Of a stretch of 44,723 bases of DNA, positions 21,451-34,261 are shown in pieces. Numbering within the stretch: the first letter of the stretch is position 1; each line of letters begins with the position of its first letter. The stretch comes from Thermoleophilia bacterium (lineage in GTDB: Bacteria > Actinomycetota > Thermoleophilia > Gaiellales > Gaiellaceae). The stretch lies in contig JADGHP010000001.1 in the NCBI GenBank assembly GCA_019683855.1, positions 1-44,723 on the forward strand, read 5' to 3'. A program made the position numbers and the translations under genes. The notes below the pieces were generated by a model that made no database searches, was not told the DNA's origin, and was given only the letters and a program-made list of their open reading frames with translations.

Positions 21451-21873
21451 CCGTCGCACGCCTTCAGGTCGAGCGCTTCTCGTTCGACCTTGCCGCTGTC
21501 CTCGCCGACAAGAACCCGGCCGCCGCGTTCGCTGGCGCTGAAACCGCCTATTCCTCGCTCTCAGCCTCCGAGAAAGACCAGCTCGTGAGTCTTCTCGAAG
21601 CGCACGGTCGGCTCGAGCAGGGACCCGTCTTCGACGCAGTCATGGCGGACGACGCCAAGGGACCGCGGCCCGCAGGCGAAGGGTCGCCCGGCGTGTCGCC
21701 GAACTCACAGAGCCGCGCACCGCGCTGCCCACATGGATGCTGAAACTCCTCGGCTCCGGGAACGTCGAGCTACGCGAGGAGGCCATCCGGTCCTTCGAGC
21801 GCGTGAAACCGCGCGACGAGCACGTGATCCGCGAGCTCCGCAACCTCGCCGACGCGGGCGGCGTACCAGGTGA

Positions 21874-22788
21874 TCTGAGCCTCGATCCACCGCGTCGGGG
21901 TGCCGGTTCCGTCCGATGGCGGGCGAGGTGCACGGCTACGAGAAGGAGGGCACCTGCTACGGGTACACGCGCGAGCGCGGCTACCACCCGTTGCTGGCGA
22001 CCCGCGCCGGCTCGGACGAGGTGCTGCACATCAGGCTGCGCAAGGGCTCCAAGGGCTCGGCGAACACGCAGCGCGGCGCGCTGCGCTTCGTCGACGAGTT
22101 GATCGCCCGCGTCCGCCGCGCCGGCGCCGTCGGCGAGATCCTCCTGCGCGTCGACTCGGGCTTCTGGAACAAGAAGATCACCGCGAGGCTGCGCGCGAAG
22201 GGTTGCCTCTACTCGATCGGGGTGAGGATCACCAAACTCGCCGCCGCCGCGATCGGCGCTATCCCCGACTAGGCGTGGCGTCGGTTGGCCGACTACCCGC
22301 AGACGGGCGAGGCGGAGATCGCCGAGACCGTCCTCAGCGACGACCGGCTGATCGTCCGCCGCGTACGCACCCTCGATCCCCAGCAGCTGTTTGCGACCTG
22401 GCAGCACTTCGCCTTCATCACGAACCGAACCGAGCCAGTCGAGCTGGTGGAGCGCGAGCACCGCGAGCACGCAACCGTCGAGCTGGCGATCCGCGACCTG
22501 AAAGACCAAGCGCTCGCGCACTTCCCCTCCGGACGCTTCAACGCCAACGCCGCCTGGACGGTGATCGCCTCACTCGCCCACAACCTGCTCCGCTGGAGCG
22601 AGCTGCTCGGCCTGCCCGAGCAGCGACCACGCCAGGCGCGAACGTTGCGGCGCTGGCTGCTCGCCCTGCCCGACCGGCTCACCCGCAGCGCCCGCCGCTG
22701 GACGCTCCACCTGCCCGCCATCTGGCCCTGGCAGCATGACTTCCTCGCCGGGCTTGCGCGAATCCGCGCGCTCCCCGCGCCCGGCTGA
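21874..22788 (+). mobile_element. IS1380-family transposase remnant (5'-truncated, with an in-frame TAG)
   Basis: EVHGYEKEGTCYGYTRERGYHPLLATRAGSDEVLHIRLRKGS...ILLRVDSGFWNKK reads to the TAG at 22270-22272. It then continues in the same frame as AWRRLADYPQTGEAEIAET...HFAFITNRTEP...REHATVELAIRDLKDQALAHFPSGRFNANAAW. About 130-150 N-terminal residues are missing, and I identified no inverted repeats. Confidence 0.7.
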
Positions 22789-22990
22789 GCGCCTCTCACC
22801 CCTCCCGTCAAACGACGCGCAGCGCCCGTCCCGGCCGGCGTGCGCTCGCGCAGGGACGCTCCGCCCTCACACGGCCGATCGAGTACGCCCAACCCGAAGT
22901 TGCTCACGCTCGACAGTCTCGCCGGCCGCCGATGAGCACCACCGACCGCTCATCACCGACCCTCGTCGATGCGAAACGGTGGATCGAGGC

Positions 22991-23170
22991 TCAGTAGAAG
23001 CGGCCGGCGATGGCGTGGGCGATCAGGAAGTTGGCGAGGATCAGCAGCCCGATCACGACCGCGAGCGCGAGCGCCACGCCCGGCAGGAGCAGCCACGGCG
23101 ACCCCTGCTCGTCGCCGCGGAGGTTCACGTGCGGGACGTGGCGATGCGGGTGCGGATGCGTGTGCGCCAT
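22991..23170 (-). CDS. 59-aa His-rich single-pass membrane mini-protein
   Basis: MAHTHPHPHRHVPHVNLRGDEQGSPWLLLPGVALALAVVIGLLILANFLIAHAIAGRFY. AAGGAGGTG lies 7-8 nt upstream of the ATG, and nearly every codon ends in G/C. It is below the ORF-track length cut-off. Confidence 0.65.
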   Translation of the reverse strand: MAHTHPHPHRHVPHVNLRGDEQGSPWLLLPGVALALAVVIGLLILANFLIAHAIAGRFY

Positions 23171-23841
23171 TCGGCACCACCTCCTTGTCCCACCCTACCC
23201 GAACTCGTGCCGGACGACACGAGCCGGGCGGTTCGCTCCCGGCGGACCTCCACGTCCGTCGGGAACGAACCTTCTGGTCCGCTGACAACGGACCAACAGC
23301 GAGCTCCAGGACTCGCTTCGGTGCGTTTCCCGCGCGTTTGGCATGCCGATGCGCCGCTGGCGAGGCGCGACGAGGAGGCGCCGATACTCCCATCGTTCCT
23401 GGCGAAATCGCACGATGGAGTCGAGCCAGGAGGGTGAGATCGTTCGAGCCGCCGCAGGCGCGCATCTCGCCGCGTTCGCGCTTGACTCCTCGGCGACCCG
23501 GCCGAGAGAATCGCGGCTGGCCAAACCCAACGGAGGTCGGCGACGTCCTGGAGCCAGACGGTCAGCGAGGTCGAGAGGTGCTCTTGCGGCTCATCCGCCC
23601 GTGGAACGCGTCGCCCGACCGGGCGGCACGTACGCCTTCTGCGCGTCGTGCTCGCGCTGGACGTCCGTGACGGAGAAGTCGACGAGAGTGACGTCGGCGG
23701 GTGCAAGATGACGCCGACCGCCCACACGCCGAAGGCGCAGACCGACGGGAGCCGGCGGCCCGGGAGGTTCTCCGACGAGAAGTCGGCGGGCGAGCAGCTC
23801 GACGAGCTCGTCCAGGTCGACGCCGCGCGGCCCCTGAGCCG

Positions 23842-24663
23842 ATGATCGCGGGGCAGGCGCATCGCGACGGCCGCGGCGGCCTCGCGCCCGCGTTTGCGGC
23901 GGCGCGCGCACGGCTCGGGCTCGTCGCGCTCCTCTTCGCGCTCGCCGCCTCCGGCTGGTGGTGGATGGCGGCACAGATGCGAGGCATGGACGAGGGACCC
24001 TGGACGGGCCTCGGCGCGTTCGGGTGGTTCGTCGGCGTCTGGCTCGTGATGATGGCCGCGATGATGTTCCCGTCCGTCGCGCCGACGGTCGCGCTCTACT
24101 CGCACATCACGAGGGAGCGTGCGGTCCTCTCGCCGCTCCTCTTCGCCGCCGGCTATCTCGTCGCCTGGGCCGTTGCCGGCGTCGTGGCGTTCGCGCTCGC
24201 GGCCGCCGGCGGCCGTGTGTGGGGCGACGTCTTCGCGTGGGAGCACGCCGGCCGCTGGCTCGCGGGCGCCACGCTCCTCGTCGCCGCCGTCTACGAGCTG
24301 ACGCCGCTGAAGGACGCCTGCCTGGGGAAGTGCCGCAGCCCGCTCGGCCTTCTCGTCGGCTCCTGGCGCGGCGGCCGGAGCGGCGCGCTGCGGATGGGGG
24401 TGCGGAACGGCGCGTGGTGCGCCGGGTGCTGCTGGGCCCTGATGGCCTCGCTGTTCGCGCTCGGCGTGATGAGCGTCACGTGGATGGCGCTCGTCGCCGG
24501 GCTGATCGCGGCCGAGAAGCTCCTTCCCTGGCGTGCCGTCGCGGTCTACGGGACCGCCGCGATCCTCCTCGCCCTGGGCGTCGCCTTGCTCGCCACGCCG
24601 GACGCCGTCCCGGGTCTCACGATTCCCGGCAGCGGCCCGATGCCGATGCCGATGACGGGATGA
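23842..24663 (+). CDS. DUF2182-family predicted metal-binding integral membrane protein
   Basis: An in-frame ATG inside track ORF 23701..24663 gives a 273-aa polytopic protein. It carries MMAAMMFPS and the Cys cluster CLGKCRSP...GAWCAGCCWALM that I recall for DUF2182. It is followed by a DUF1326 gene, the usual partner. Confidence 0.75.
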   Translation: MIAGQAHRDGRGGLAPAFAAARARLGLVALLFALAASGWWWMAAQMRGMDEGPWTGLGAFGWFVGVWLVMMAAMMFPSVAPTVALYSHITRERAVLSPLLFAAGYLVAWAVAGVVAFALAAAGGRVWGDVFAWEHAGRWLAGATLLVAAVYELTPLKDACLGKCRSPLGLLVGSWRGGRSGALRMGVRNGAWCAGCCWALMASLFALGVMSVTWMALVAGLIAAEKLLPWRAVAVYGTAAILLALGVALLATPDAVPGLTIPGSGPMPMPMTG

Positions 24664-24678
24664 GAGGCTAGACGAGCG

Positions 24679-25284
24679 ATGGGCTGGCGCATCCGGGGGA
24701 CGTACTTCGAATCCTGCAATTGCGACGCGATCTGCCCGTGCCGACGGATCGACGGCGTAGCGGGCGGGCGCTCGACCCACGGCGTCTGCACCGGCGTGCT
24801 CACCTGGCTCATCGAGGACGGGCATGTGGACGGAACGGAGCTCGCCGGGCTGCCCGTCGCCCTCGCCTTCCGCTACGACGACGACGAGCCGGGGTCGCCG
24901 TGGACCTGGATCCTCTACCTCGACGCGCAGGCGACGGACGAGCAGCGCGCCGGGCTCGAGGCCATCTTCGCGGGCCGTCTCGGCGGCGACGCACTCGTGC
25001 ACTTCCCCTGGGCATGGAAGCAGAGCGAGCTCGTGGCCGTGCGGCCCGTCACCATCGACGTCGACCACACGCGACGGCGCCAGCGGCTGCGCGTCCGCGA
25101 CAGAGTCAGCGTGCGGATCCGCGGCGCATACGCCGGCGCCGGGACGGTCACATGCGTGATCCCGGGCCACGACCGCGAGGGCGAGGAGCTCGTCGCCGAC
25201 GAGCTCCTCGTCGAGGATCCGCCGCTCGAGGTGAGCTACCGCGGCACATGCGGCTACGGCTCGACGTTCGACTACTCCGGATGA
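24679..25284 (+). CDS. DUF1326-family protein
   Basis: ORF 24679..25284 (201 aa) starts MGWRIRGTYFESCNCDAICPCR, the N-terminal Cys motif I recall as typical of DUF1326. Confidence 0.75.
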   Translation: MGWRIRGTYFESCNCDAICPCRRIDGVAGGRSTHGVCTGVLTWLIEDGHVDGTELAGLPVALAFRYDDDEPGSPWTWILYLDAQATDEQRAGLEAIFAGRLGGDALVHFPWAWKQSELVAVRPVTIDVDHTRRRQRLRVRDRVSVRIRGAYAGAGTVTCVIPGHDREGEELVADELLVEDPPLEVSYRGTCGYGSTFDYSG

Positions 25285-25302
25285 CGAAGAAGGGACTGCG
25301 CC

Positions 25303-25911
25303 ATGCCAGAGACCACGATGTTCCTCAGCGAGCCGCCCATAGACGAGGCGGGCGAGCGCGCCTACGAGGAGGACCGCTCCTCCAGTGGCTACGTCATGAA
25401 CGTGACGCGGCTGTGGTGCTGGCGGCCGGACGTCTACGAGGTCTACCGCGCGCTGCGGTCGGCGCTCATGGAGAGCTCGACGCTGACCGACCGCGACTGG
25501 GCGATCCTCGTCGCTGCCACGGCGGCGGAGCGGCGCGATTCGTACTGCTCGCTCGCCTGGGGGTCGCGCCTGGCACGGCTCACCGACGGCGCCACCGCTG
25601 CCGCCGTGATCGCCGGAACGCCCGCCGACGCGCTCTCCGAGCGCGAGCAGGCGCTCGCCGACTGGGCACGCAAGGTCGTCGACGACCCCAATGCGACGAC
25701 GGAGGACGACGTCGCGCGCCTGCGCGAGCTCGGGCTCGGCGACCGCGAGATCTTCGAGGCGACGGTGTTCGTCGCCCTCCGTCTCGCCTTCTCGACCGTC
25801 AACGACGCGCTCGGCGCCGCGCCGGACAAGCAGGTGGCGGACGAGGCCCCGGCACCTGTGCGGGACGCGGTCGCATGGGGCCGGGCGCCGGAGGCGACGC
25901 CGTCGCGGTAG
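25303..25911 (+). CDS. Carboxymuconolactone decarboxylase / AhpD-like family protein
   Basis: ORF 25303..25911 (202 aa) is an all-helical CMD-like sequence (RDWAILVAATAAERRDSYCSLAWGSRL...). The family assignment is moderately secure. Confidence 0.6.
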   Translation: MPETTMFLSEPPIDEAGERAYEEDRSSSGYVMNVTRLWCWRPDVYEVYRALRSALMESSTLTDRDWAILVAATAAERRDSYCSLAWGSRLARLTDGATAAAVIAGTPADALSEREQALADWARKVVDDPNATTEDDVARLRELGLGDREIFEATVFVALRLAFSTVNDALGAAPDKQVADEAPAPVRDAVAWGRAPEATPSR

Positions 25912-26004
25912 CACGGCGCAGAACGGAGCGCCGGTGCCGCCCGCCGAACGGCGAGCCAGGCATGCGACGCGCGGCTCGCCGCCTTCCGCGAGCTCCGGCT
26001 GAGC

Positions 26005-26697
26005 TCACCCCTCGTCGGCGGCGTCGCCCCCGCCCGCGTCCACCCGCGCGATCCACTCGGCGTAGAGCGGGTCGACGACGCGGTACTTGCCCGCGCCCGC
26101 CTCCTCGACGTCGGCGGCGTCGAGCAGCCGCTGGACGGCGGCGCTCGCGGCGCTCTTCTCCAGCTCGAGCCGGCGGAGCACGGCCGTCCGGTAGGCGGAG
26201 CCGCTGCCGGCGACGATCAAGCGGAGCGTCTTCTGCGCGACCGTCGACCCGTAGCCGCGCCAGATCGCGTCGAACTCGGGCTGGAGCTCGGCCAGCGCGG
26301 CCGCGTGGGCGGCCTCCCAGCGCTCGAGCGTGCCGGCCTCGCCGGACGGCACCTGGTCCCACAGGTGGTGGGCGAGCATGATCGCCCGCTGCGGATGGCC
26401 CTGCGCGCTCTCGAGCAGCGGCCCGAGCGCCTCGCCGACGCTCCTCGAGGTCTGCGCGAAGCGGTCGGCTACGTAGTCGGCGATGTCCGCGTCGGCGAGG
26501 CGGCCGAGCCGCATCGGCACCGCGGCGCCGTAGAGCGGCCGCTCCTTCCGCTCGAACAGCTGCTTCATCAGCCCTGGCTCCGAGCCCGCGAACACGTACG
26601 ACGCGACCTCGCCGTGGTGCTGGATGTGGCTGCGGATCAGGCCGTCCAGGTCGGGGATCCTGCCGACGTCCTGGAACTCGTCCAGCGCGATCAGCGC
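26005..26697 (-). pseudogene. AAA/Arch-type ATPase with C-terminal winged helix, N-terminally truncated (no Walker A)
   Basis: From residue 79 of track ORF 26005..26931 the protein reads ALIALDEFQDVGRIPDLDGLIRSHIQHHGEVASYVFAGSEPGLMKQLF...RPLYGAAVPMRLGRL... (Walker B onward). The first 78 residues of the ORF are antisense to another coding fragment. Confidence 0.55.
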
Positions 26698-26721
26698 CCG
26701 TTCCGGACAAGTCGCAAGCAG

Positions 26722-26946
26722 GGGGACTATGCCAACCTGATCGGCGCGATCGGGAACACGCCCAAGATGCGGGGGATCAAGGCCGAGCTCGAAGTCATCC
26801 ACAACCTCCGCTCCGAGAAGAGCATGGAGGCGCATCCCGGCGAGCCGGCAACCGCCGAGGACGTAACGGCTGCGAGGCAGCACTTGAAGAAGGTGGCGAC
26901 CGTCTGCCTCCAGCTTCTCGAGGACGCCCACGCGGCGCAGGGGTAG
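26722..26946 (+). pseudogene. C-terminal tail of a HEPN-like (Swt1-type) protein; fragment only
   Basis: GDYANLIGAIGNTPKMRGIKAELEVIHNLRSEKSMEAHPGEPATAEDVTAARQHLKKVATVCLQLLEDAHAAQG ends at a stop. G/C third-position bias is strong. The R...H spacing is looser than the canonical Rx4-6H. Everything upstream in this frame is antisense to the ATPase remnant. Confidence 0.35.
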
Positions 26947-27026
26947 GACGGCGGTCTTCAGATAGCGGCGGGCACGGAGTGAGCGCCCAAGCGGAGGGGC
27001 AGACCTCGTCTGCCGAACGAGGCGCC

Positions 27027-28925
27027 TTACGGGAAGGAGATGAGGTCCTCGTATTTGAGCCCGCGCGTCGCGGGCTTTCCCCGGTCTGTAAGCCGCTGGC
27101 GCCTAATCTCGACCCTCGGCGGATCGGCCGCGCCCATCGCCTTGATCGCCGCCCGGTACTCCGGCTCCAGCCAGACGCCGTGCGGATAGTCCTCGTTCAG
27201 AAGATCCAGGAACGCGAGCGTGCGGCCCCGGTACATCTCTGTTAGCCGGTCCTGAAGTGTCGGGTAGGGAGGTGCTTCGGCCACCTCCAACTCGAGCTGA
27301 TCGGGCGGGCGGATAGTCACCGGCCAGAACGTCATGTCCCCCGACTTCTTGACCATCGCCTTCTTCATCTCTCGCATTCCGAGGTCGCTGTTCGTGAGGT
27401 GGACGAGGTAGTAGAGGACGGTCTTGCGCTCGTCCTCGAAGACGCGGAACGGCGTGGCCCAGCGGGCTACCCCCGACCGAACGACGTCCTGGAAGCGGAG
27501 AAGGAGGCATTCCGGACGGTTCGCCGCCTGCTCGCACTCGCGCCACGCGTCGCCCCCGAACAAGGCAGTGAGCGGTTCCGCATAGTTCCCTTCCTTCATG
27601 AAGCGGCTTGGGTCGCGAACCATGAACGTCAGAAGGATTTCGAGGCGCTCGATCGCGAGGAGCCTGCGAAGGAGGCTGAGCCGCACGCCTCGGATGCCGT
27701 ACGGGTCGACCAGCACAAAGATGGGAACAGCCGGATGCTGCTTCTCGGCCCACTCAGCCAGCCGAGTGCCGATCTCTTCGAACGTTTCCTTCGTCGGGAC
27801 GATCTTGACCTGCGGATGCCTCAGCCCGTCACACACTTCCTCGAGGTGGGCGAAGTTGCCGGCGTTCGGCTCGGCACAGCGGATCAGCACGTGCTCGGCC
27901 AGGCCGGCCTCGACCACCTCGACCGCCCGCTCGAACATGATCTTCGGCGAGCCCGGCTCGCCGCCGATGTACCGCCCGCGTCCCGCGAATCCGTCCACGA
28001 GCACGAGCTGCTTGTGACGCCATTTGGTTCCCTTCCTGCCCCGGCCAAGGATGGCCAGCCATGCGCCGAGGTATCGATGCAGGATCTCGTGCTTCGCTGC
28101 CGTGTGCTCGGTGTAGACCCACTTCTCGTCGGCATCGTCAGGAATGTCACGCGGCCTGCCCATGCGTCCGTTTGTAGCGGAAGACGCGAGTGGCATGGCA
28201 TTCCACTCGCGGCCGTCGAGAAGGCGTCCGTTCGACTGGGGCCGGAGGCCACCCCACTGCTTGAAGAAGAAAGCAACGCCTTCGCGCTCACATTGCTGCC
28301 TCAGCACGCGGACCCATTCGGGTTTGATTGGACGGTGGCGCGGGCCCGATTCGCCGCCGACGATGAGCCAGTGAATGCCGGTGAGGTCGAGACCATCGAG
28401 CGGTCCGAGCAGCGGCTCGGCGCTGATAAAGCGGACAGCGGCCGGCACTCGCCTCAGGTAGTCCGCGCGCACGACCCAGCGCCGATTCTCGATTGATACG
28501 CCCATCCACACGTTTGGTGGCCAAGAAAGCGATGGGGCCAGTTCCGCGAGCCGCTCGTGTCGCTTGGTGAGGATCTGGAACGTATGACGCTCGGCCGCGC
28601 GCATGACGCCGAATACCTCTTTGATGAAGTCGAGCGGTACGAGTTCATGGAACAGGTCGCTCATGCTGTTCACGAAAATCATCCGCGGCCGTCGCCAGCG
28701 GAGCGGCTGGTCGAGGCGCTCAGGATGGAGCCGAACGTTCTCTGACGCATGGTCTGGAAGCCACGGTTTCGGTGACCTCCCGAAGCGGAGACTGATCGCC
28801 TCGGCGTAGCAGTGAGCGCAGCCTGGACTCACCTTTGAGCAGCCGGTGACCGGGTTCCAGGTGGACTCTGTCCACTCGATCGTCGTGTCAGCGGGCATGC
28901 GGAAGCGGCGAGCGTAATCGACCAT
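27027..28925 (-). CDS. Fusion protein: N-terminal DUF5131 (phage Gp37/Gp68, three-Cys motif) domain plus C-terminal TcmP (three-Cys-motif partner protein)-like domain
   Basis: ORF 27027..28925 is intact (632 aa). The N-terminal domain reads TIEWTESTWNPVTGCSKVSPGCAHCYA (C-x6-C-x2-C)...FISAEPLLGPL...WLIVGGESGP...FFFKQWGG. The C-terminal domain reads HTAAKHEILHRYLGAWL...LVLVDGFAGRGRY...FVLVDPYG...YYLVHLTNS, followed by an unassigned tail of about 85 aa. Confidence 0.8.
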   Translation of the reverse strand: MVDYARRFRMPADTTIEWTESTWNPVTGCSKVSPGCAHCYAEAISLRFGRSPKPWLPDHASENVRLHPERLDQPLRWRRPRMIFVNSMSDLFHELVPLDFIKEVFGVMRAAERHTFQILTKRHERLAELAPSLSWPPNVWMGVSIENRRWVVRADYLRRVPAAVRFISAEPLLGPLDGLDLTGIHWLIVGGESGPRHRPIKPEWVRVLRQQCEREGVAFFFKQWGGLRPQSNGRLLDGREWNAMPLASSATNGRMGRPRDIPDDADEKWVYTEHTAAKHEILHRYLGAWLAILGRGRKGTKWRHKQLVLVDGFAGRGRYIGGEPGSPKIMFERAVEVVEAGLAEHVLIRCAEPNAGNFAHLEEVCDGLRHPQVKIVPTKETFEEIGTRLAEWAEKQHPAVPIFVLVDPYGIRGVRLSLLRRLLAIERLEILLTFMVRDPSRFMKEGNYAEPLTALFGGDAWRECEQAANRPECLLLRFQDVVRSGVARWATPFRVFEDERKTVLYYLVHLTNSDLGMREMKKAMVKKSGDMTFWPVTIRPPDQLELEVAEAPPYPTLQDRLTEMYRGRTLAFLDLLNEDYPHGVWLEPEYRAAIKAMGAADPPRVEIRRQRLTDRGKPATRGLKYEDLISFP

Positions 28926-28928
28926 CTA

Positions 28929-28946
28929 GGCGAACATATGTTCGCC
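28929..28946. promoter_or_regulatory. LexA (SOS/Cheo) box inside an 18-bp perfect palindrome, overlapping a -10-like hexamer of the fusion gene
   Basis: GGCGAACATATGTTCGCC has the core CGAAC-ATAT-GTTCG at 28931-28944. On the minus strand, TATGTT ends 7 nt before the ATG at 28925. The core has the same architecture as the box upstream of lexA at 34214-34227. Confidence 0.7.
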
Positions 28947-29085
28947 ACGCGGCCGGACGGAGACCTCTCGAGCTTCTACGTGTCGTCGATGCCTCCTACG
29001 CGCTCCACGGTTGAGCCGGTGCAAGGCGTCGCGCTGGCGCAAGAGACGCGAGTCGGCTTCGTAGTCATCGTCGAAGCGAGCATGA

Positions 29086-29565
29086 CGAGAAGGACCGTCC
29101 TCCCGCTCCTTCGACGGCTCGACCTCTCTCGAGCCGCGGGAGCGGCGCTTCTTCAGGACGATCTCGAAGCGCGAGTGGACGTGGATCAAGCACACGATCC
29201 TCGGCCGCTACCTGCGCCCCTGGAGCATGAAGGTGGGCACCCTCGCCAAGACGATCTGGGTCGTCGACTGCTTCGCGGGCGCGGGCAGCTACGAGGACCT
29301 CCTCACGGGTGAGCGCATCGACGGGTCGCCGGTGATCGCGGCGCTCGAGGCGCGCAGGCACGCCGAGCAGCGCCCCGGCCGTGAGATGCGCGTCATCTGC
29401 GTCGAGCGCAATCGGAAGAACTACGCCGACCTGGTCGAGCGCGTGTCCGGCTTCAGCGACGTCGTCACCGCCCTCAGGGGCAACTTCGCTCGCCACATCG
29501 AGGCGATCACGAAGACGATCGGCGACGACCCGGCGCTGATCTTCCTCGACCCGATCGGCGTGAAG
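29086..29565 (+). pseudogene. Second TcmP-like gene, damaged at both ends
   Basis: The frame opening at 29086 reads ...FFRTISKREWTWIKHTILGRYLRPWSMKVGTLAKTIWVVDCFAGAGSY...VICVERNRKNY...ALIFLDPIGVK, which parallels the TcmP domain of the fusion. There is no ATG/GTG/TTG before the conserved N-terminal motif (an ATG at 29082 is in another frame). Homology ends at about 29565, where IS110 transposase sequence begins. Confidence 0.6.
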
Positions 29566-30813
29566 GCAAGTACGGCGGAGGGGCCGAGACCGAGCACGCC
29601 GCCTGCCTGCTCTCCCCGACGGAGGAGGTACTCAGGCGGCTGCGGATCGGCCGCGACGTCCAAGGCGTCGAGCGGCTCGTCCGCGCGATCGGCGAGCTCG
29701 AGCCGGATCCGGCCCCGGTGCTGGTCGCCATCGAGACCGCGCACGGGCTGCTCGTCTCCGCGCTCCTCGAGGCCGGCTACACCGTCTATCCGATCAACCC
29801 GAAGGCGGTCGAGCGCTACCGGAGCAGGACGCGCGTCTCGCGCGCGAAGACCGACCCGGCCGACGCCGAGCTGCTCGCCCGGATCCTTTGCACCGACCGG
29901 GAGCGCCACCGTCCGCTGTCGGTCTCCTCGGCCGAGCGGGAGGAGATCCGCTCGCTCGCCCGCGACGACGCGCGCGCCGCCCGCGACCAGCGGCGGCTCT
30001 TGAACCGGCTGCGCCAGGACCTGCTGGCCGTCTTCCCGCAGGCGCGTGAGGCGTTCGACGACCTCGCCGCCCCCACCTGCCTCGCCTTCCTCGCCCGCTG
30101 GCCGAGCGCCAGCGAGGCGGCCGCGGTCGACGAGGCCGAGCTGGAGGCGTTCTTCCGCGGGCAGCGGCACGGCTGGCCCGCCCGCGCCGCGGCGCGCATC
30201 CGCGCCGCCCTGACCGCGCCCGCCCTGACCGCGCCGCCCCACCTTGCCTCCGCGAAAGCGGGCACGATCCGGCTCGCCTGCGAGCAGCTGCTCCTGATCC
30301 ACCGCCAGCGGCGCGCCTGGGAGCGGCGACTGCGCGAGCTGTTGGAAGGCGAACGAGCGCACCCTGACGGCGAGATCTACCTGAGCCTGCCCGGGCTCGA
30401 CATCCGCCTCGCCGCCAGGGTGTTGGCCGAGGTCGGAGACGGCGCCACCGACTTCACCGTCCCCAACCAGCTCCAATGCTACGGCGGCACCGCGCCGGTC
30501 ACCAGACGCTCCGGCAAACAGCTCACCATCGCCTGCCGGCTCGCCTGCAACCGCCACCTCCGCCAGGCCGCGATGCAATGGGCCTTCTGCAGCCTCAGCC
30601 GCAGCGCCTGGACCCGCGACTTCTACGACCGCCAAGCGCCACCGGCAAAACCCACTACAAAGCCCTCCGAGCCCTCGCCAACCACTGGCTCGAACTGCTC
30701 TGGCACCTCCCCCACAAGCGCGCCCTCTACAACGAGAGCACCCATCAACACAACCGCTCCAAAGCCGAAGCGACAGCATGCGCCGCGTAGAAGATGGACA
30801 AAGGGTGTCTCAC
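29566..30813 (+). mobile_element. IS110-family element remnant (transposase lacking its first residues and 5' non-coding end; frameshift near the 3' end)
   Basis: The transposase reads ..AETEHAACLLSPTEEVLRRLRIG...PVLVAIETAHGLLVSALLEAGYTVYPINPKAVERYR...KTDPADAELLARIL...LSLPGLDIRLAARVLAEVGD...GTAPVTRRSGK...WTRDFYDRQ. After a 1-nt shift at about 30634-30642 it continues ATGKTHYKALRALANHWLELLWHL... to the TAG at 30788-30790. Confidence 0.75.
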
Positions 30814-31161
30814 CGCCAGCCCTGGGGCGTGAGCGGGCTCGCCTGCGCGGCGCTCGCGACGTGCGCCGGAGATCGCGACACGCCGAGGCGCGTCGCCGGC
30901 GAGGTGGCCGCCGCCCGCGTCGAGCTCGCGGAGGCGCTCGGCTCGCTTGCCGGCCTCCGCGTCTGGCCGTCCGCGGCGAACTTCCTCCTCGTGCGAACGC
31001 CGGAGGGACCCCGCCTCGTCGAGGCGCTCCGTCGACGGAGAATCGCCGTCCGCCCCGCCGCCTCCTTCCCCGGCTTGAACGAGAGCTACGTTCGGATCGC
31101 CGTGCGCACGCGCGACGACAACATGCTGCTCGTGGGGGCGCTGGGGGAGCTGCTCGCGTAG
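30814..31161 (+). pseudogene. C-terminal fragment of a CobD/CobC-type (HisC-family) PLP-dependent threonine-phosphate decarboxylase
   Basis: RQPWGVSGLACAALATCAGD...LRVWPSAANFLLVRTPEG...IAVRPAASFPGLNESYVRIAVRTRDDNMLLVGAL corresponds to only about the last 115 residues of such an enzyme. The PLP-lysine region is absent, and the upstream sequence is the IS110 remnant. Confidence 0.6.
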
Positions 31162-31259
31162 ATGCCGCTCGTCTCTGCGATCGGAGGCACGGGCAGCGGC
31201 AGGCCGAAGCCGGCTGCGCCGCGAGCGGCGGAACGGCTGCCCACGGCGAGGATCGCCCC

Positions 31260-33101
31260 GTGAGCCTCGGCGAGCGCTTCGAGCGGCCGCCGCTGCCGCC
31301 CGGCTTCGACGAGTCGCGCGCCCGCGAGCGGCGCAGCGACCCAGCCGGCTGGCGCTTCGACGACGCCGAGCGGGCAGGGGTCTGGCGGGCGATCACCGAG
31401 CGCCGCGACATCCGCCGCTTCCGTCCCGACCCGCTGCCCGACGAGTTGCTCCGCCGGCTGCTGGAGGCCGCCCACCAGGCGCCCTCGGTTGGGCTGATGC
31501 AGCCGTGGCGGTTCATCCTCGTCCGCGAGGAGCGGACGAAGGCGGAGATGCAGGCTCTCGTCGCCCGCGAGCGGCTCGTCCAGGCCGAGCGCTTCGACGA
31601 GCGTGCCCGCCACTACCTCGACCTGAAGATCGAGGGCATCCGCGAAGCCCCGCTCAGCATCTGCGTCTGCTGCGACCGCGAGCCGGGCCGCGAGGTGCTC
31701 GGCCGGCACACGATCCGCGACACCGACCTCTACAGCACCTGCCTCGCGATCGAGAACCTCTGGCTCGCCGCCCGCGCCGAAGGCGTCGGCGTCGGCTGGG
31801 TCTCCTTCTACCGCGAAGACGACCTCCGCGCCCTGCTCGGCCTCCCCGAGCGGGTCGTCCCGGTCGCCTGGCTCTGCCTCGGCTACCCCGACGAGCGGCC
31901 CAGCCGCCCCGGCCTCGAAGCCGCCGGCTGGGAACGCCGCCGCCCGCTCGACGAGCTCGTCTTCGCCGAGCGTTGGGGGAAACGCGAGTCGGAGCCGCGC
32001 CCGCCAACGATCGTCGCTTCCGCATACGCGGTGGCGCCGACCGAGCAGCCGGACTGGTGGCGGCGGCTCGCCGACGAGGTCCGGCCGGGCGACCCGACCG
32101 CCGCCATCCGTGTCCGCGACGCCTCCGACGAGCTTGTGAAGCCTGCCGGCAGCCTCGGCGCCCTCGAGACGCTGCTCGAGCGGTGGGCGATCGCGACCGG
32201 CACGACCCCGCCCAGCCGGCCGCGCGCCGGCATCATCGTCTTTGCCGCCGACCACGGCGTCGCGGAACGCGGCGTCAGCCTCTACCCCGCCCGCGTCGGC
32301 GCCCAGGTCGCCGCGGCCGCCGCCCGCGGCGAAACCGCGATCGGTGTTCTCGCCCGCGCGCTCGGCGCCGAGCTGGTCGTCGCCGACGTCGGCTTGTCCG
32401 GGCCGCGCGTGGCGGGGCTCGTCGACCGGCGCGTCGTCGACGGAAGCGCGGACATCACGAAGGGGCCCGCGCTCACCGCCGGCCAGCTTCGGACGGCGAT
32501 CGAAACGGGACACTCGCTCGCCCGCCATCTCGCCCAGCGCTGCGACCTGCTCATCCTGGGCGAGATCGGCATCGGGAACACGACCGTCGCCTCGGCCCTC
32601 CTCGCGGCGCTCACCCGCCTTCCGCCCGAAGCCGTCTGCGGACGGGGCACCGGTCTCGACGCCCAGGGACTCGAGCGCAAGCGGGACACCGTCGCCTCCG
32701 CCCTGGCCGCGAACGCGCCCGACGGCGCCGACCCGCTCGAGTGCCTCCGCCGGCTCGGCGGTCTCGAGATCGCCGCCCTCGTCGGCGGCCTCCTCGCCGC
32801 TGCCGCCGCGCGACGGCCCGTGCTCCTGGACGGCTTCGCGACCGGCGTCGCCGCGCTCGCCGCCTGTCGCTTGCAGCCGGCGCTCCGCGACTACCTGATC
32901 GCTGGACACCGCTCCGCCGAGCCCGCCCACGCGCGCGTGCTCACCGAGCTCGGCCTCGAGCCGCTGCTCGACCTCCGGCTCCGCCTCGGCGAAGCGAGCG
33001 GCGCGGCCCTCGCGCTCCCGCTCGTCGGCCTCGCCGCCCGCCTCCACACCGAGATGCGGCGATTCGACCAAGCCGGCGTCGACCGCGCCGGCGCGGAGTG
33101 A
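31260..33101 (+). CDS. bluB/cobT: Fusion of BluB (5,6-dimethylbenzimidazole synthase) and CobT (nicotinate-nucleotide:DMB phosphoribosyltransferase)
   Basis: The GTG at 31260 is preceded by GAGGA. The N-terminal half is a nitroreductase-fold BluB (RRDIRRFRPDPLPDELLRRLLEAAHQAPSVGLMQPWRFILV...). The C-terminal half is CobT (DELVKPAGSLGALETLLERWA...IIVFAADHGV...GEIGIGNTT...). The total is 613 aa. It is part of the artefactual 1127-aa track ORF. Confidence 0.85.
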   Translation: MSLGERFERPPLPPGFDESRARERRSDPAGWRFDDAERAGVWRAITERRDIRRFRPDPLPDELLRRLLEAAHQAPSVGLMQPWRFILVREERTKAEMQALVARERLVQAERFDERARHYLDLKIEGIREAPLSICVCCDREPGREVLGRHTIRDTDLYSTCLAIENLWLAARAEGVGVGWVSFYREDDLRALLGLPERVVPVAWLCLGYPDERPSRPGLEAAGWERRRPLDELVFAERWGKRESEPRPPTIVASAYAVAPTEQPDWWRRLADEVRPGDPTAAIRVRDASDELVKPAGSLGALETLLERWAIATGTTPPSRPRAGIIVFAADHGVAERGVSLYPARVGAQVAAAAARGETAIGVLARALGAELVVADVGLSGPRVAGLVDRRVVDGSADITKGPALTAGQLRTAIETGHSLARHLAQRCDLLILGEIGIGNTTVASALLAALTRLPPEAVCGRGTGLDAQGLERKRDTVASALAANAPDGADPLECLRRLGGLEIAALVGGLLAAAAARRPVLLDGFATGVAALAACRLQPALRDYLIAGHRSAEPAHARVLTELGLEPLLDLRLRLGEASGAALALPLVGLAARLHTEMRRFDQAGVDRAGAE

Positions 33102-33544: not shown

Positions 33545-34177
33545 TCATCCCAGCTCTCGGAAGACGCCGACCACCTTGCCGAGGATCTGCACGTGGCGCG
33601 GATAGATGGGCTCGAGCGCGGCGTTCTCGGGCTGCAGCCGGATGCGGTCGCCGTCGCGGTAGAACGTCTTCACGGTCGCCTCGTCGGCGGACTCGTCGTC
33701 GCCGGCCAGCGCGACCACGATCTCGCCGTTGCGCGCGTCCTGCGTCCGCCGGACGACGACGATGTCGCCGTCGAGGATGCCGGCCTCGATCATCGAGTCG
33801 CCCTTCACGCGGAGCAGGAAGTCGCCGCGCAGCGTCTCGGGGACGGCGATCTCGTCCTCGACGTTCTGCTCGGCGAGCAGCGGCGCGCCCGCGGCGATCT
33901 GCCCGAGCAGCGGCAGCCGCGGCAGCTCCGCGGCCGCGGGCTCGCCCGGCTTCTCGCGCCCGACGAGCTCGAGGGCGCGCGGCTTCGTCGGGTCGCGCCG
34001 CAGGAGCCCGGCGCGCTCGAGGTTGGCGAGGTGCGCGTGCACGGTCGAGGGCGACGCGAGCCCGACCGCCTCGCCGATCTCGCGCACCGTCGGCGGATAG
34101 CCGTGGCGGTCGACGTAGTCGACGAGGAAGCTCCAGATCTGGCGCTGGCGTCCGGTCAGCTCCGCGGTGCTCTGCAT
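33545..34177 (-). CDS. lexA: LexA repressor
   Basis: An in-frame ATG at 34177 starts MQSTAELTGRQRQIWSFLVDYVDRHGYPPTVREIGEAVGLASPSTVHAHLANLERAGLL. The Ala-Gly cleavage site is in GQIAAGAPLL, the Ser in VKGDSM and the Lys in ATVKTF (210 aa). Confidence 0.93.
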   Translation of the reverse strand: MQSTAELTGRQRQIWSFLVDYVDRHGYPPTVREIGEAVGLASPSTVHAHLANLERAGLLRRDPTKPRALELVGREKPGEPAAAELPRLPLLGQIAAGAPLLAEQNVEDEIAVPETLRGDFLLRVKGDSMIEAGILDGDIVVVRRTQDARNGEIVVALAGDDESADEATVKTFYRDGDRIRLQPENAALEPIYPRHVQILGKVVGVFRELG

Positions 34178-34213: not shown

Positions 34214-34261
34214 CGAACGTGTGTTCGAGGACAGCCTAGAGACTCCTCCGGACGGCGTCAA
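34214..34261 (-). promoter_or_regulatory. lexA promoter with its autoregulatory SOS box
   Basis: The minus strand reads TTGACG (34261-34256), 17 nt, TAGGCT (34238-34233), 5 nt, then CGAACACACGTTCG (plus strand CGAACGTGTGTTCG, 34214-34227). This lies 37 nt upstream of the lexA ATG. Confidence 0.7.

What the first reader, a model, noticed from the sequence alone, without database searches (positions are those of the whole stretch)
27027..28946. Intact DUF5131 (three-Cys, phage Gp37/Gp68) :: TcmP fusion gene sitting directly behind a perfect LexA/SOS box
ORF 27027..28925 (632 aa) joins two uncharacterised families that, as far as I recall from Pfam and TIGRFAMs, normally occur as adjacent separate genes.
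- Residues about 14-235 are a canonical DUF5131 domain: WNPVTGCSKVSPGCAHCYA (C-x6-C-x2-C), FISAEPLLGPL, WLIVGGESGP.
- Residues about 268-545 match the three-Cys-motif partner protein TcmP: HTAAKHEILHRYLGAWL, LVLVDGFAGRGRY, FVLVDPYG, YYLVHLTNS.
- An unassigned tail of about 85 aa follows.

Immediately upstream (28929-28946) lies the 18-bp perfect palindrome GGCGAACATATGTTCGCC. Its core, CGAAC-ATAT-GTTCG, is the Gram-positive/actinobacterial LexA box. The same core architecture (CGAAC-GTGT-GTTCG, 34214-34227) precedes the lexA gene in this window. Repressor and operator type are therefore both present.

The box embeds a TATGTT (TANNNT) hexamer that ends 7 nt before the ATG. That is the geometry of a leaderless promoter occluded by LexA.

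Inference: this is a DNA-damage-induced, phage-derived two-domain module of unknown chemistry. DGFAGRG resembles SAM-methyltransferase motif I, so nucleic-acid modification, or a defence or abortive function triggered by SOS, are plausible. I know of no experimental description of this pair, of the fusion, or of SOS control of it.
Basis: partly seen in the sequence, partly recalled or inferred. Interest (0 to 1): 0.85.

Follow-up and report, generated by a model that had tools for sequence, protein, structure and literature searches.

The report
SOS-controlled radical-SAM/methyltransferase-fold fusion gene
An intact gene fusing a spore-photoproduct-lyase-like iron-sulfur enzyme to a methyltransferase-like partner sits behind a LexA (DNA-damage) operator, and related genes in several bacterial phyla carry their own lineage's LexA site, which points to a DNA-damage role for a large uncharacterised family.

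Summary
ORF 27027..28925 (-) is an intact DUF5131::TcmP fusion (Pfam E=1e-98; NCBIfam E=3e-40). The palindrome GGCGAACATATGTTCGCC (28929-28946) is a perfect LexA box. The only other exact box in the window lies upstream of lexA (2 found, 0.10 expected).

Three points need correction:
- The fusion is recurrent, with at least 45 protein clusters.
- Homologues start at M10 (ATG 28898), so the leaderless geometry is doubtful.
- The C-terminal "tail" belongs to TcmP and looks like a winged helix.

The main new result is comparative. All 13 close relatives with upstream DNA (12 other loci plus the window) carry the same box, one with a single mismatch, 13-46 nt before the start codon, in otherwise unalignable DNA. 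More distant relatives carry their own lineage's LexA motif: alphaproteobacterial GTTC-N7-GTTC, Firmicutes-type AGAAC-N4-GTTCT, and CTGT-N8-ACAG. In two proteobacterial MAGs the pair lies in an operon directly after lexA. One of these reads lexA-tcmP-DUF5131-imuA-imuB-dnaE2.

Structure models put the N-terminal half nearest spore photoproduct lyase (weak match) and the C-terminal half in the RlmJ-like SAM-methyltransferase fold.

Best reading: a LexA-repressed enzyme that acts on DNA after damage. Its chemistry is untested. PADLOC lists the pair only as candidate defence systems PDC-M30/M41, and I found no paper on the SOS link.

The parts
27027..28925 (-). DUF5131::TcmP fusion ORF (632 aa from ATG 28925). 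The probable true start is ATG 28898 (M10), giving 623 aa.
   Evidence: The alignment with 29 homologues puts the conserved N-terminus MPxxS/TAIEWT at M10, and every invariant residue is retained.
28191..28886 (-). DUF5131 domain (residues 14-245). It is a radical-SAM-superfamily branch with a C-x6-C-x2-C cluster motif (C29, C36, C39; 28809-28841).
   Evidence: PF07505 E=9.6e-99. PMC9477430 lists DUF5131 as Megacluster-5-2 with a CX6CX2C motif, beside spore photoproduct lyase at 5-3. In the domain model, the top PDB Foldseek hit is spore photoproduct lyase 4fhg at E=3.6e-3, followed by lipoyl synthase and TIM barrels.
27345..28109 (-). TcmP domain (residues 273-527) with a class I SAM-methyltransferase fold. 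Conserved residues: motif I D311-G-F-A-G-R-G-R-Y319, E352, and D407-P408-Y-G.
   Evidence: TIGR04474 E=2.8e-40. Foldseek PDB hits are RlmJ 6qe5 (TM 0.48 on the target), Trm1, TYW4, histamine MTase and PRMT5, at E 1e-5 to 3e-7.
27030..27290 (-). C-terminal tail (residues 546-632), a probable winged-helix nucleic-acid-binding unit belonging to TcmP.
   Evidence: It is present in stand-alone TcmP proteins of about 380 aa at up to 73% identity. The model has pLDDT 84-94 with helices 555-564, 572-582 and 587-599 and short strands. Homologues hit PF22560 GMT-wHTH at 23-26 bits against a cut-off of 27. The window protein itself gives no Pfam hit.
28929..28946 (.). LexA operator, an 18-bp perfect palindrome with core CGAAC-ATAT-GTTCG. 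It lies 3 nt before ATG 28925 and 30 nt before ATG 28898 (32 nt from the 14-bp core).
   Evidence: The same core lies upstream of DUF5131 in 12 other close-clade loci and in the more distant Blastococcus locus L021.
28954..28960 (-). Conserved CCGTCCG element exactly 9 nt upstream of the box core. It is a candidate -35 region or second regulatory site.
   Evidence: It is present at fixed spacing in 13/13 close-clade loci, while the flanks are otherwise about 31% identical. Its function is unresolved.
33545..34177 (-). lexA, the repressor of the same operator type.
   Evidence: TIGR00498 E=3.6e-67.
34214..34227 (.). LexA box CGAAC-GTGT-GTTCG upstream of lexA (autoregulation).
29086..29570 (+). 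Decayed second TcmP gene, divergent from the fusion. It has no start codon before 29227, and its 3' half is replaced by an IS110 remnant.
   Evidence: TIGR04474 positions 30-140, E=1.1e-20. PADLOC PDC-M30A. Frame reading. GC3 is 0.96, like the host.

Best explanation
**What it is.** The gene belongs to the LexA (SOS) regulon.
- In undamaged cells a LexA dimer sits on CGAAC-ATAT-GTTCG, which overlaps or directly follows the promoter.
- After DNA damage, RecA-stimulated LexA self-cleavage frees transcription.

**What the product looks like.** It is one polypeptide with three parts:
- an Fe-S/SAM radical enzyme of the DUF5131 branch (C-x6-C-x2-C), whose nearest characterised relative is the DNA-repair enzyme spore photoproduct lyase;
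- an RlmJ-like SAM-methyltransferase-fold domain (TcmP) with intact SAM-binding motifs and a DP(Y/F) motif of the kind used by base-flipping amino-methyltransferases;
- a winged-helix-like tail.

**Proposed mechanism.** The TcmP half and tail bind DNA and present a base or lesion. The radical-SAM half then carries out hydrogen-abstraction chemistry on it. The outcome would be direct reversal or processing of a lesion, or a damage-linked base modification.

**Shown versus inferred.**
- Shown here: domain identities, folds, the operator, and conservation of the operator.
- Inferred: LexA binding, induction by damage, DNA as the substrate, and the chemistry.
For: **1. The operator is real and matches the resident repressor.**
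- There are 2 exact boxes in 44.7 kb against 0.10 expected, and the other one is at lexA.

**2. Phylogenetic footprint in the close clade.**
- The box lies 13-46 nt before the conserved start in 12 other loci: L004, L005, L006, L014, L083, L084, L085, L087, L091, L098, L099 and L100. L087 has one mismatch. With the window this makes 13 of 13 close-clade loci with upstream DNA.
- The more distant Blastococcus locus L021 has an exact box 117 nt before the start.
- The box is 91% identical across these loci, against 31% in the flanks. Spacers and distances vary.
- The first 93 fetched loci total 1.0 Mb and contain only 11 exact boxes. Nine of them are immediately upstream of DUF5131.

**3. Lineage-matched LexA motifs in distant relatives.**
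- GTTC-N7-GTTC lies at -17 to -28 in Methylobacterium, Parvibaculum, another alphaproteobacterial MAG and Gemmatimonas (4 observed, 0.36 expected).
- GAAC-N4-GTTC was seen 13 times against 0.6 expected, including a Dehalococcoidia locus.
- In viral contigs, AAGAAC-N4-GTTCTT precedes low-GC fusions, TACTGT-N8-ACAGTA occurs in one contig, and GTTC-N7-GTTC occurs in two.

**4. Operons with lexA itself.**
- L080 (Burkholiales-type MAG, Burkholderiales) reads lexA-tcmP-DUF5131-imuA-imuB-like-dnaE2.
- L072 (deltaproteobacterial MAG) reads lexA-tcmP-DUF5131, followed further on by imuA-like and imuB-like genes.

**5. Protein evidence.**
- DUF5131 is curated in the radical SAM superfamily next to spore photoproduct lyase (PMC9477430).
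- Spore photoproduct lyase is the top structural match.
- SplB-like radical SAM genes are known SOS-regulon members (PMC8565304 and PMC3765255).
- The gene is intact, with every family-invariant residue kept.
Against: - There is no experimental datum for LexA binding, induction, Fe-S content, SAM cleavage or substrate.
- The spore photoproduct lyase match is weak (E=3.6e-3, TM 0.44). Generic TIM barrels score similarly, and no PDB sequence hit exists.
- The best structural matches of the TcmP half are RNA methyltransferases.
- The pair is common on plasmids, in temperate phages and in defence-island-like contexts, and PADLOC lists it as a defence candidate. This fits mobile-element or defence roles at least as naturally.
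- Several actinobacterial relatives (Streptomyces, Acidimicrobiia, Sphaerisporangium) have no recognisable box.
- About 80% of the broad sample has no motif that I could test.
- Mobile elements often place genes under LexA for reasons unrelated to repair.
Confidence: 0.45

Rival explanations
1. It is an anti-phage defence or abortive-infection module (PADLOC candidates PDC-M30/M41). Its expression is wired to SOS because phage attack or prophage induction triggers LexA cleavage. The two domains would modify or damage invading nucleic acid, or shut down the cell.
For: - Strong hits to PDC-M41B/M30B (E=1e-104 and 6e-98) and to PDC-M30A/M41A.
- Neighbours in relatives include Mrr (L099), and PIN plus AAA_15/AAA_21 and DUF488 (L100).
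- The window's own 20-31 kb stretch holds an McrBC fragment and transposase remnants.
- In Gordonia phage Fairfaxidum the pair sits between the integrase and the immunity repressor, a region where prophage-expressed accessory genes commonly lie (own knowledge).
- In S. meliloti, TcmP SMa2243 lies beside the defence gene hna (PMC12445080).
Against: - PDC systems are candidates without tested function. Only two papers mention PDC-M30, both merely as a PADLOC output.
- Placement inside lexA-imuA-imuB-dnaE2 operons fits defence less well.
- So do solitary LexA-boxed DUF5131 genes among housekeeping genes (L004, L005).
- No nuclease, NTPase or other effector domain is present.
Confidence: 0.2
2. 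It is a mobile-element self-service enzyme. It would modify DNA or counteract restriction on behalf of a phage, plasmid or island, and be switched on by SOS when the element mobilises.
For: - 432 plasmid records and 179 phage records carry DUF5131, often with TcmP and next to integrases or partition genes.
- More than 590 relatives were found in viral contigs.
- The gene plus its promoter forms a 2.1-kb low-GC islet.
- The methyltransferase fold has a DP(Y/F) motif.
Against: - The window islet and several relatives (L004, L005, L098) have no mobility, replication or packaging genes around them.
- The fusion copy has stayed intact while adjacent mobile-element remnants have decayed.
Confidence: 0.15
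3. It is an SOS-induced RNA-modifying enzyme acting on rRNA or tRNA, which would retune translation during the damage response.
For: The closest solved folds for the TcmP half are RNA methyltransferases: RlmJ, Trm1, TYW4 and BCDIN3D. Radical-SAM RNA methylases and modifiers are well known (own knowledge).
Against: - Genomic partners are DNA-centred (lexA, imuA, imuB, dnaE2, integrases).
- The nearest relative of the radical-SAM half is a DNA repair lyase.
- Distribution is patchy and tied to mobile elements, which is unlike core RNA-modification genes.
Confidence: 0.1
4. The palindrome is a chance or relic sequence, or it serves only the divergent decayed TcmP gene. The fusion gene would then not be SOS-regulated.
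For: The box lies in a divergent region 140-200 nt from the 5' part of the second TcmP copy. The simple scan finds no sigma-70-type promoter.
Against: - Conservation in 13/13 close-clade loci with entirely different upstream neighbours.
- Lineage-specific LexA motifs in other phyla.
- 0 of 100 shuffles give two boxes in the window.
Confidence: 0.03

Closest known systems
SplB / spore-photoproduct-lyase-like radical SAM 'DNA repair photolyases' (COG1533), reported as SOS-regulated in several phyla (PMC8565304, PMC3765255)
   Same: - Both belong to the radical SAM superfamily, and both fall in RadicalSAM.org Megacluster-5.
- Spore photoproduct lyase is the best structural match of the DUF5131 half.
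- Both sit behind LexA operators and associate with mutagenesis and repair genes.
   Different: - The cluster motif is CX6CX2C rather than CX3CX2C.
- There is no sequence-level match to spore photoproduct lyase, and the fold match is only marginal.
- DUF5131 needs or recruits a methyltransferase-fold partner (TcmP), which SplB does not have.
- No activity is known.
PADLOC candidate defence systems PDC-M30 and PDC-M41 (two-gene: A = TcmP-like, B = DUF5131)
   Same: The protein families are the same, and both halves hit these models strongly. A defence-island-like neighbourhood is seen in some relatives.
   Different: Here the two genes are fused and LexA-controlled. The PDC entries carry no mechanism, no regulation and no experimental test.
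LexA-regulated mutagenesis cassette lexA-imuA-imuB-dnaE2
   Same: In L080 the tcmP-DUF5131 pair sits inside this cassette, between lexA and imuA. L072 is similar. LexA control is shared.
   Different: The window has no imuA/imuB/dnaE2 next to the fusion. The pair is an optional insert, not a described component of the cassette.
RlmJ-type (23S rRNA m6A2030) and related class I amino-methyltransferases
   Same: The Rossmann SAM-binding fold matches. So do motif I (GxGxG-like, DGFAGRG), the acidic motif II residue, and a DP(Y/F) motif IV analogue.
   Different: - Sequence identity is about 11%.
- TcmP has a conserved N-terminal helix (HTxAKHxIL..YLxAW) and a winged-helix tail.
- It is obligately partnered with DUF5131.
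- Neither its substrate nor methyl transfer itself has been shown.

Membership tests
DUF5131 (PF07505, phage Gp37/Gp68) | Profile match above Pfam's gathering score over the full domain | tested here: met
   E=9.6e-99, 330 bits against 28.9, profile positions 2-243 of 243.
DUF5131 (PF07505, phage Gp37/Gp68) | Three-Cys motif C-x6-C-x2-C near the N-terminus | tested here: met
   C29, C36 and C39 are conserved in the homologues. The motif is named for Megacluster-5-2 in PMC9477430.
TcmP (TIGR04474, three-Cys-motif partner protein) | Profile match above NCBIfam's cut-off | tested here: met
   138.9 bits against 53, profile positions 1-262 of 263.
TcmP (TIGR04474, three-Cys-motif partner protein) | Genomic partnership with a DUF5131 protein | tested here: met
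   It is fused here. In relatives it is adjacent, convergent or fused.
LexA/SOS regulon (Gram-positive/actinobacterial CGAAC-N4-GTTCG operator) | Consensus operator in the promoter or 5' region | tested here: met
   An exact palindromic core lies 3 nt before ATG 28925 and 32 nt before ATG 28898.
LexA/SOS regulon (Gram-positive/actinobacterial CGAAC-N4-GTTCG operator) | A cognate LexA is encoded and autoregulated through the same operator type | tested here: met
   lexA at 33545-34177, with a box at 34214-34227.
LexA/SOS regulon (Gram-positive/actinobacterial CGAAC-N4-GTTCG operator) | Operator conserved upstream of orthologues (phylogenetic footprint) | tested here: met
   13/13 close-clade loci carry it. 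Lineage-matched motifs occur in other phyla. Nine of the 11 exact boxes in 1.0 Mb of the first 93 loci lie upstream of DUF5131.
LexA/SOS regulon (Gram-positive/actinobacterial CGAAC-N4-GTTCG operator) | LexA binding and induction by DNA damage | not testable with these tools
   Needs EMSA or ChIP, and RNA-seq or RT-qPCR after mitomycin C or UV.
Radical SAM superfamily | Canonical CX3CX2C motif | tested here: not met
   The motif is CX6CX2C. RadicalSAM.org accepts this as a listed variant for this subgroup.
Radical SAM superfamily | Partial (beta/alpha)6 TIM-barrel core | tested here: inconclusive
   The model shows alternating strands and helices, with core pLDDT about 90. Foldseek hits are spore photoproduct lyase, lipoyl synthase and TIM barrels, all at E>1e-3. 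The cluster loop is modelled poorly.
Radical SAM superfamily | [4Fe-4S] cluster and reductive SAM cleavage | not testable with these tools
   Needs biochemistry.
Spore photoproduct lyase / SplB family | Sequence-level homology to solved spore photoproduct lyase | tested here: not met
   A profile search of the PDB finds nothing significant. There is only a marginal fold match. I therefore do not file it as an SPL member, only as the nearest characterised relative.
Class I SAM-dependent methyltransferases (RlmJ-like) | Rossmann-like methyltransferase fold with a SAM-binding motif I and an acidic motif II residue | tested here: met
   35 Foldseek PDB hits at E<=1e-3, nearly all methyltransferases. 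D311, G315, G317 and E352 are invariant in 30 sequences.
Class I SAM-dependent methyltransferases (RlmJ-like) | Methyl-transfer activity on a defined substrate | not testable with these tools
   No data.
PADLOC PDC-M30 / PDC-M41 | Both component profiles are matched | tested here: met
   PDC-M41B E=1.3e-104, PDC-M30B E=6.4e-98, PDC-M30A E=9.7e-23, PDC-M41A E=2.4e-6.
PADLOC PDC-M30 / PDC-M41 | Protection against phage | not testable with these tools
   It is a candidate system only. No test was found in the literature.
   The geometry holds for ATG 28925. However, homologues start at M10 and are mostly leadered with Shine-Dalgarno sites, and half of them lack a TANNNT hexamer inside the box. 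Needs 5'-RACE.

The most novel reading that the evidence does not exclude
DUF5131/TcmP would be a previously unrecognised SOS-regulon DNA-repair system found across phyla. It would be the third branch of the spore-photoproduct-lyase clan of radical SAM enzymes. A methyltransferase-fold partner would recognise and flip a damaged base, and the Fe-S/SAM domain would reverse or process the lesion by radical chemistry. The many phage, plasmid and 'defence-candidate' copies would then be mobile versions of a repair function.
Probability: 0.3. Interest if true: 0.85.

Novelty: new variant of a known kind. Interest (0 to 1): 0.66.

Why it matters
- DUF5131 is a large family found in bacteria, plasmids and phages, with hundreds of records in each collection searched here. 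It has no known function, and its partner TcmP is equally uncharacterised.
- LexA sites of four different lineage types recur in front of these genes, and the pair can sit between lexA and imuA-imuB-dnaE2. This gives a first concrete and testable functional lead: the DNA-damage response.
- It would extend the known SOS link of SplB-like radical SAM enzymes to a second branch of the same clan.
- It would change how the 'PDC-M30/M41' defence candidates are read.
- Culturable carriers with predicted LexA sites exist, so the question is directly testable. Examples are Methylobacterium brachiatum B0021 and Blastococcus sp. TF02A-30.

Tried and rejected
- **PDB sequence search.** A profile search of the PDB with the 30-sequence alignment gave nothing significant for either half.
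- **Pfam on the TcmP half, tail and second copy.** Searches at E<=10 gave no hit for the window protein. Only homologues give near-threshold GMT-wHTH hits.
- **Promoter and terminator scan.** A consensus sigma-70 scan of 26700-29400 found no promoter and one terminator-like site, inside the coding sequence and not above the shuffle background.
- **Repeat search for island boundaries.** The search over 26000-31500 found only GC-rich chance matches.
- **The 89-codon ORF (28926..29195 -).** It ends at the TAG before the ATG. It has no family hit and no homologue outside the near-identical contig L001. I treat it as spurious.
- **The 308-aa gene downstream (26005..26931 -).** It has no family hit, host-like GC, and is not conserved next to relatives. 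I do not count it as part of the module.
- **E. coli-type box upstream of lexA in L080.** None was convincing, so the operator of that operon is unidentified.
- **Composite motif scan in viral contigs.** GTCCG-N9-box gave one hit (L181) that is not followed by DUF5131. It is probably unrelated.
- **Metagenome scan.** It returned only 13 loci, so the close-clade sample is small.
- **Viral structure library.** It only re-confirmed the methyltransferase fold.
- **RecA-NDp/PafBC motif.** I considered it for the CCGTCCG element and rejected it because the spacing does not fit (the motif is from my own knowledge).
- **First attempt at dnaE2 in L080.** My first frame choice was a spurious ORF. This was corrected.


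Full report

Yes. The minus-strand ORF 27027..28925 encodes 632 aa.
- Pfam gives DUF5131 over residues 14-245 (E=9.6e-99).
- The cysteines are C29-x6-C36-x2-C39.
- The 18-bp perfect palindrome GGCGAACATATGTTCGCC lies at 28929-28946, three bases before the ATG at 28925.
- Exact CGAAC-N4-GTTCG occurs only twice in the 44.7-kb window, against 0.10 expected. None of 100 shuffles reaches two.
- The other copy (34214-34227) lies 37 nt upstream of a bona fide lexA (33545..34177 -, TIGR00498 E=3.6e-67).

**2. Corrections to the anatomy.**

- *Start codon.* Twenty-five homologues begin MP/VPxxS/TAIEWT, which aligns to M10 of the window ORF (ATG 28898). Several have a clear Shine-Dalgarno sequence and a 25-46 nt leader after the box. 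Leaderless initiation at that in-frame ATG cannot be excluded, because no Shine-Dalgarno sequence precedes M10. It is not what the family does in general, however. Half of the relatives have ATGT spacers with no TANNNT inside the box.
- *The tail.* The 85-aa 'tail' is part of TcmP in this clade. Stand-alone TcmPs of about 380 aa cover residues 255-632 at up to 73% identity. The AlphaFold model folds it with high confidence as a helix/strand unit. Homologues give near-threshold GMT-like winged-helix hits.
- *The upstream DNA.* It is not empty. On the + strand from 29086 lies a second TcmP copy (TIGR04474 positions 30-140, E=1e-20). It has host-like codon usage and no start codon before 29227. 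Its 3' half is replaced by a 5'-truncated IS110 transposase. Only the last 125 or so codons of cobD/cobC follow.
- *Composition.* The fusion gene with its promoter is a 2.1-kb islet of 63-65% GC in a 71-77% GC background.
- *Related strain.* A Logan contig (L001, SRR12718347) is 99.76% identical over window positions 22538-29951, including these junctions.

**3. The fusion is recurrent.**

- Among the 120 best-scoring protein clusters, about 45 are full-length fusions of 550-660 aa at 58-72% identity. JGI already names many of them 'three-Cys-motif partner protein'.
- In species-representative genomes the two families appear fused, adjacent in either order, convergent, or with DUF5131 alone.
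- Fusions also occur in an Acidobacteriota MAG (L010, 634 aa) and in low-GC viral contigs.
- The closest genomic relatives of the DUF5131 half (65-69% identity) are in Solirubrobacterales MAGs. With 71% GC, this suggests the window comes from a Thermoleophilia-type actinobacterium. That is an inference.

**4. The LexA box is conserved. This is the main result.**

I collected every close relative whose upstream DNA was available:
- four Solirubrobacterales genomes (L004, L005, L006, L014);
- five metagenome loci (L083, L084, L085, L087, L091);
- three contigs retrieved through homologous proteins (L098, L099, L100).

All twelve have CGAAC-N4-GTTCG, with one mismatch in L087. The box ends 13-46 nt before the conserved start codon, as in the window, where the core box ends 32 nt before M10. 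A more distant Blastococcus locus (L021) has an exact box 117 nt upstream.

Anchored on the box, these regions are 91% identical within it and 31% identical in the 40 nt on either side. The spacers vary (ATAT, ATGT, ATGA, ATTC, GTTT), and so do the distance to the start codon and the upstream neighbours. This is selective conservation rather than recent common descent.

In the 1.0 Mb of the first 93 fetched loci there are only 11 exact boxes, and nine lie directly upstream of DUF5131. The box tracks DUF5131 rather than TcmP:
- in L004 and L005 DUF5131 is alone;
- in L006 the box lies between an upstream TcmP gene and DUF5131;
- in L014 TcmP is convergent.

**5. The link to LexA crosses phyla.**

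Upstream of more distant DUF5131 genes I found the LexA motif proper to the lineage. Motif assignments rest on my own knowledge of published LexA sites.

| Motif type | Where found | Statistics / call |
|---|---|---|
| Alphaproteobacterial direct repeat GTTC-N7-GTTC, at -17 to -28 | Methylobacterium brachiatum (L002), an alphaproteobacterial MAG (L003), Parvibaculum (L050), Gemmatimonas (L038) | 4 observed, 0.36 expected |
| GAAC-N4-GTTC | Dehalococcoidia MAG (GAGAACGTATGTTCTC, -11) and two other loci, in addition to the close clade | 13 observed in all, 0.6 expected |
| AAGAAC-N4-GTTCTT (Firmicutes type) | Two 40%-GC fused genes in viral contigs (L101, L102) | |
| TACTGT-N8-ACAGTA (E. coli type) | Viral contig L120 | |
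| GTTC-N7-GTTC | Viral contigs L124 and L129 | |

Independently, two proteobacterial MAGs place the pair in an operon right after lexA.
- L080 (Burkholderiales) reads lexA (LexA_DNA_bind + Peptidase_S24), tcmP (E=2e-44), DUF5131, imuA (NF033429, E=4e-67), a Y-family-like imuB, and dnaE2 (Pol III alpha, E=2e-113 to 4jom). The gaps between lexA, tcmP, DUF5131 and imuA are 11-46 nt.
- L072 (deltaproteobacterium) reads lexA, tcmP, DUF5131, with imuA-like and imuB-like genes 3-4 kb further on.

Some actinobacterial relatives (Streptomyces, Sphaerisporangium, Acidimicrobiia) show no box. SOS control is therefore frequent but not universal.

**6. What the protein looks like.**

The full-length model has mean pLDDT 78, with both cores near 90.
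- *C-terminal half.* It is a class I SAM-methyltransferase fold. PDB hits include RlmJ (6qe5, TM 0.48 on the target), Trm1, TYW4, histamine N-methyltransferase and PRMT5. Thirty-five hits fall at E<=1e-3, nearly all methyltransferases. A viral library gives the same answer. Invariant residues fit a working SAM site: D311-G-F-A-G315-R-G317 (motif I), E352 at the end of the next strand, and D407-P408-Y-G, which resembles the (D/N)PP(Y/F) motif of base-flipping amino-methyltransferases (the reading of the motifs is inference).
- *N-terminal half.* Modelled alone (pLDDT 76), it gives spore photoproduct lyase as top hit (4fhg, E=3.6e-3, probability 0.97, TM 0.44). Lipoyl synthase and generic TIM barrels follow. 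This is weak on its own. It agrees with RadicalSAM.org, which places DUF5131 (Megacluster-5-2, CX6CX2C) in the same megacluster as spore photoproduct lyase (5-3) (PMC9477430). Neither half has a sequence-level relative in the PDB.

**7. Context elsewhere.**

- The pair is abundant on mobile DNA. There are 432 plasmid records, for example P. aeruginosa pJB37 next to an integrase and a Micromonospora plasmid near parAB.
- There are 179 phage records, mainly Gordonia and Mycobacterium phages, which carry DUF5131 only or with a separate partner.
- In Gordonia phage Fairfaxidum, DUF5131 (gp42) and a convergent 'methyltransferase' (gp43) lie between the integrase and the immunity repressor. I show that gp43 is a TcmP (TIGR04474, E=4e-31).
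- PADLOC models PDC-M41B/M30B and PDC-M30A/M41A match the two halves. These are untested candidates.
- Some relatives sit near Mrr, PIN or AAA_15/21 genes.
- The window itself has an McrBC fragment and transposase remnants at 20.9-22.8 kb.

**8. Mechanism and rivals.**

The best-supported statement is regulatory. This gene is LexA-repressed and induced by DNA damage. I put that at about 0.85, on comparative evidence only.

For function, I favour action on DNA after damage (0.45). Three observations together support this:
- the nearest characterised relative is a DNA-repair lyase;
- SplB-like radical SAM genes are already known SOS members (PMC8565304, PMC3765255);
- the pair can be embedded in the lexA-imuA-imuB-dnaE2 cassette.

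The methyltransferase-fold half and the winged-helix tail would supply DNA binding and base presentation.

| Rival | Confidence |
|---|---|
| SOS-wired phage defence | 0.2 |
| Mobile-element DNA modification or anti-restriction | 0.15 |
| RNA modification | 0.1 |
| Non-functional box | 0.03 |

All but the last rival keep LexA control. They differ in substrate and purpose, which only experiments can settle.

**9. Novelty.**

Full-text searches gave the following:
- Terms searched were DUF5131, PF07505, TIGR04474, TcmP/'three-Cys-motif', Gp37Gp68, COG4422 and PDC-M30/M41.
- They returned only annotation-level mentions and the RadicalSAM.org listing.
- A separate search for imuA + radical SAM + LexA returned only papers on SplB-like enzymes.
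- No paper in that library describes function, the fusion, or SOS control.

The families, the fusion and the 'defence candidate' label are therefore known. The conserved, cross-phylum LexA control and the lexA/imuA embedding appear to be new.

**10. Caveats.**

- All regulatory claims are sequence-based.
- The close-clade sample is 13 loci.
- LexA motifs could be tested only for lineages whose motif I know.
- Collection scans return at most 80 loci each.
- The spore photoproduct lyase match is marginal.
- A conserved CCGTCCG element lies exactly 9 nt upstream of the box in 13/13 close relatives and remains unexplained.

Noticed in passing
window 28954-28960 (- strand), and the same position in L004, L005, L006, L014, L083, L084, L085, L087, L091, L098, L099, L100: A second conserved element, (C)CGTCCG (variants TGTCCG, TGTCGG, CGTCTC), lies exactly 9 nt upstream of the LexA-box core in 13/13 close-clade loci. 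The surrounding sequence is otherwise unconserved. It could be a -35 region or a site for a second regulator. It is absent at the window's own lexA promoter and in Blastococcus L021.
   Followed up: partly
window 29086-31161 (+): This stretch looks like a rearrangement scar. A second TcmP copy has host-like codon usage but no start codon before 29227. It breaks off near 29570 into a 5'-truncated IS110 transposase (to about 30800). Only the C-terminal 125 or so codons of cobD/cobC follow (30778-31161), ahead of a cobalamin-gene-like ORF. The same junctions are present in contig L001 from SRR12718347.
   Followed up: partly
window 20888-22788: An McrBC C-terminal fragment (20888-21445, -) and two adjacent DDE_Tnp_1_4 transposase fragments (21874-22272 and 22273-22788, +) suggest a decayed defence or mobile island. 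It lies between ABC-transporter genes and the fusion locus.
   Followed up: no
window 27000-29100; L004 5989-6729: The LexA box plus gene forms a minimal low-GC islet. In the window it is 63-65% GC against 71-77%. In L004 GC3 is 0.81 against 0.92-0.98 in the neighbours. No mobility gene is attached. How such a cassette spreads is unclear.
   Followed up: no
L080 3497-4471; L098 1-343; L099 6031-6498; L100 459-923: Genes of the glyoxalase/bleomycin-resistance family lie within 4 kb of the DUF5131/TcmP module in four unrelated loci. This may be chance in soil genomes. It may also be a further hint of a link to DNA-damaging agents.
   Followed up: no
L072 4215-4232: The 18-bp palindrome ACTGAAAATATTTTCAGT lies just upstream of lexA in the lexA-tcmP-DUF5131 operon of a deltaproteobacterial MAG. 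It is probably that LexA's operator. I did not match it to a published motif.
   Followed up: no
L095 (Gordonia phage Fairfaxidum) 3992-5933: The phage gene annotated 'methyltransferase' (gp43) is a TcmP-family protein (TIGR04474, E=4e-31). It is convergent with DUF5131 gp42 and lies between the integrase and the immunity repressor. No GAAC-N4-GTTC box is present in that region.
   Followed up: partly
L085 4223-6131: In this close relative the DUF5131 and TcmP reading frames overlap by about 158 nt in different frames. This is either a genuine split, a frameshifted fusion or a sequencing error. Fusion and fission seem frequent within the clade.
   Followed up: no
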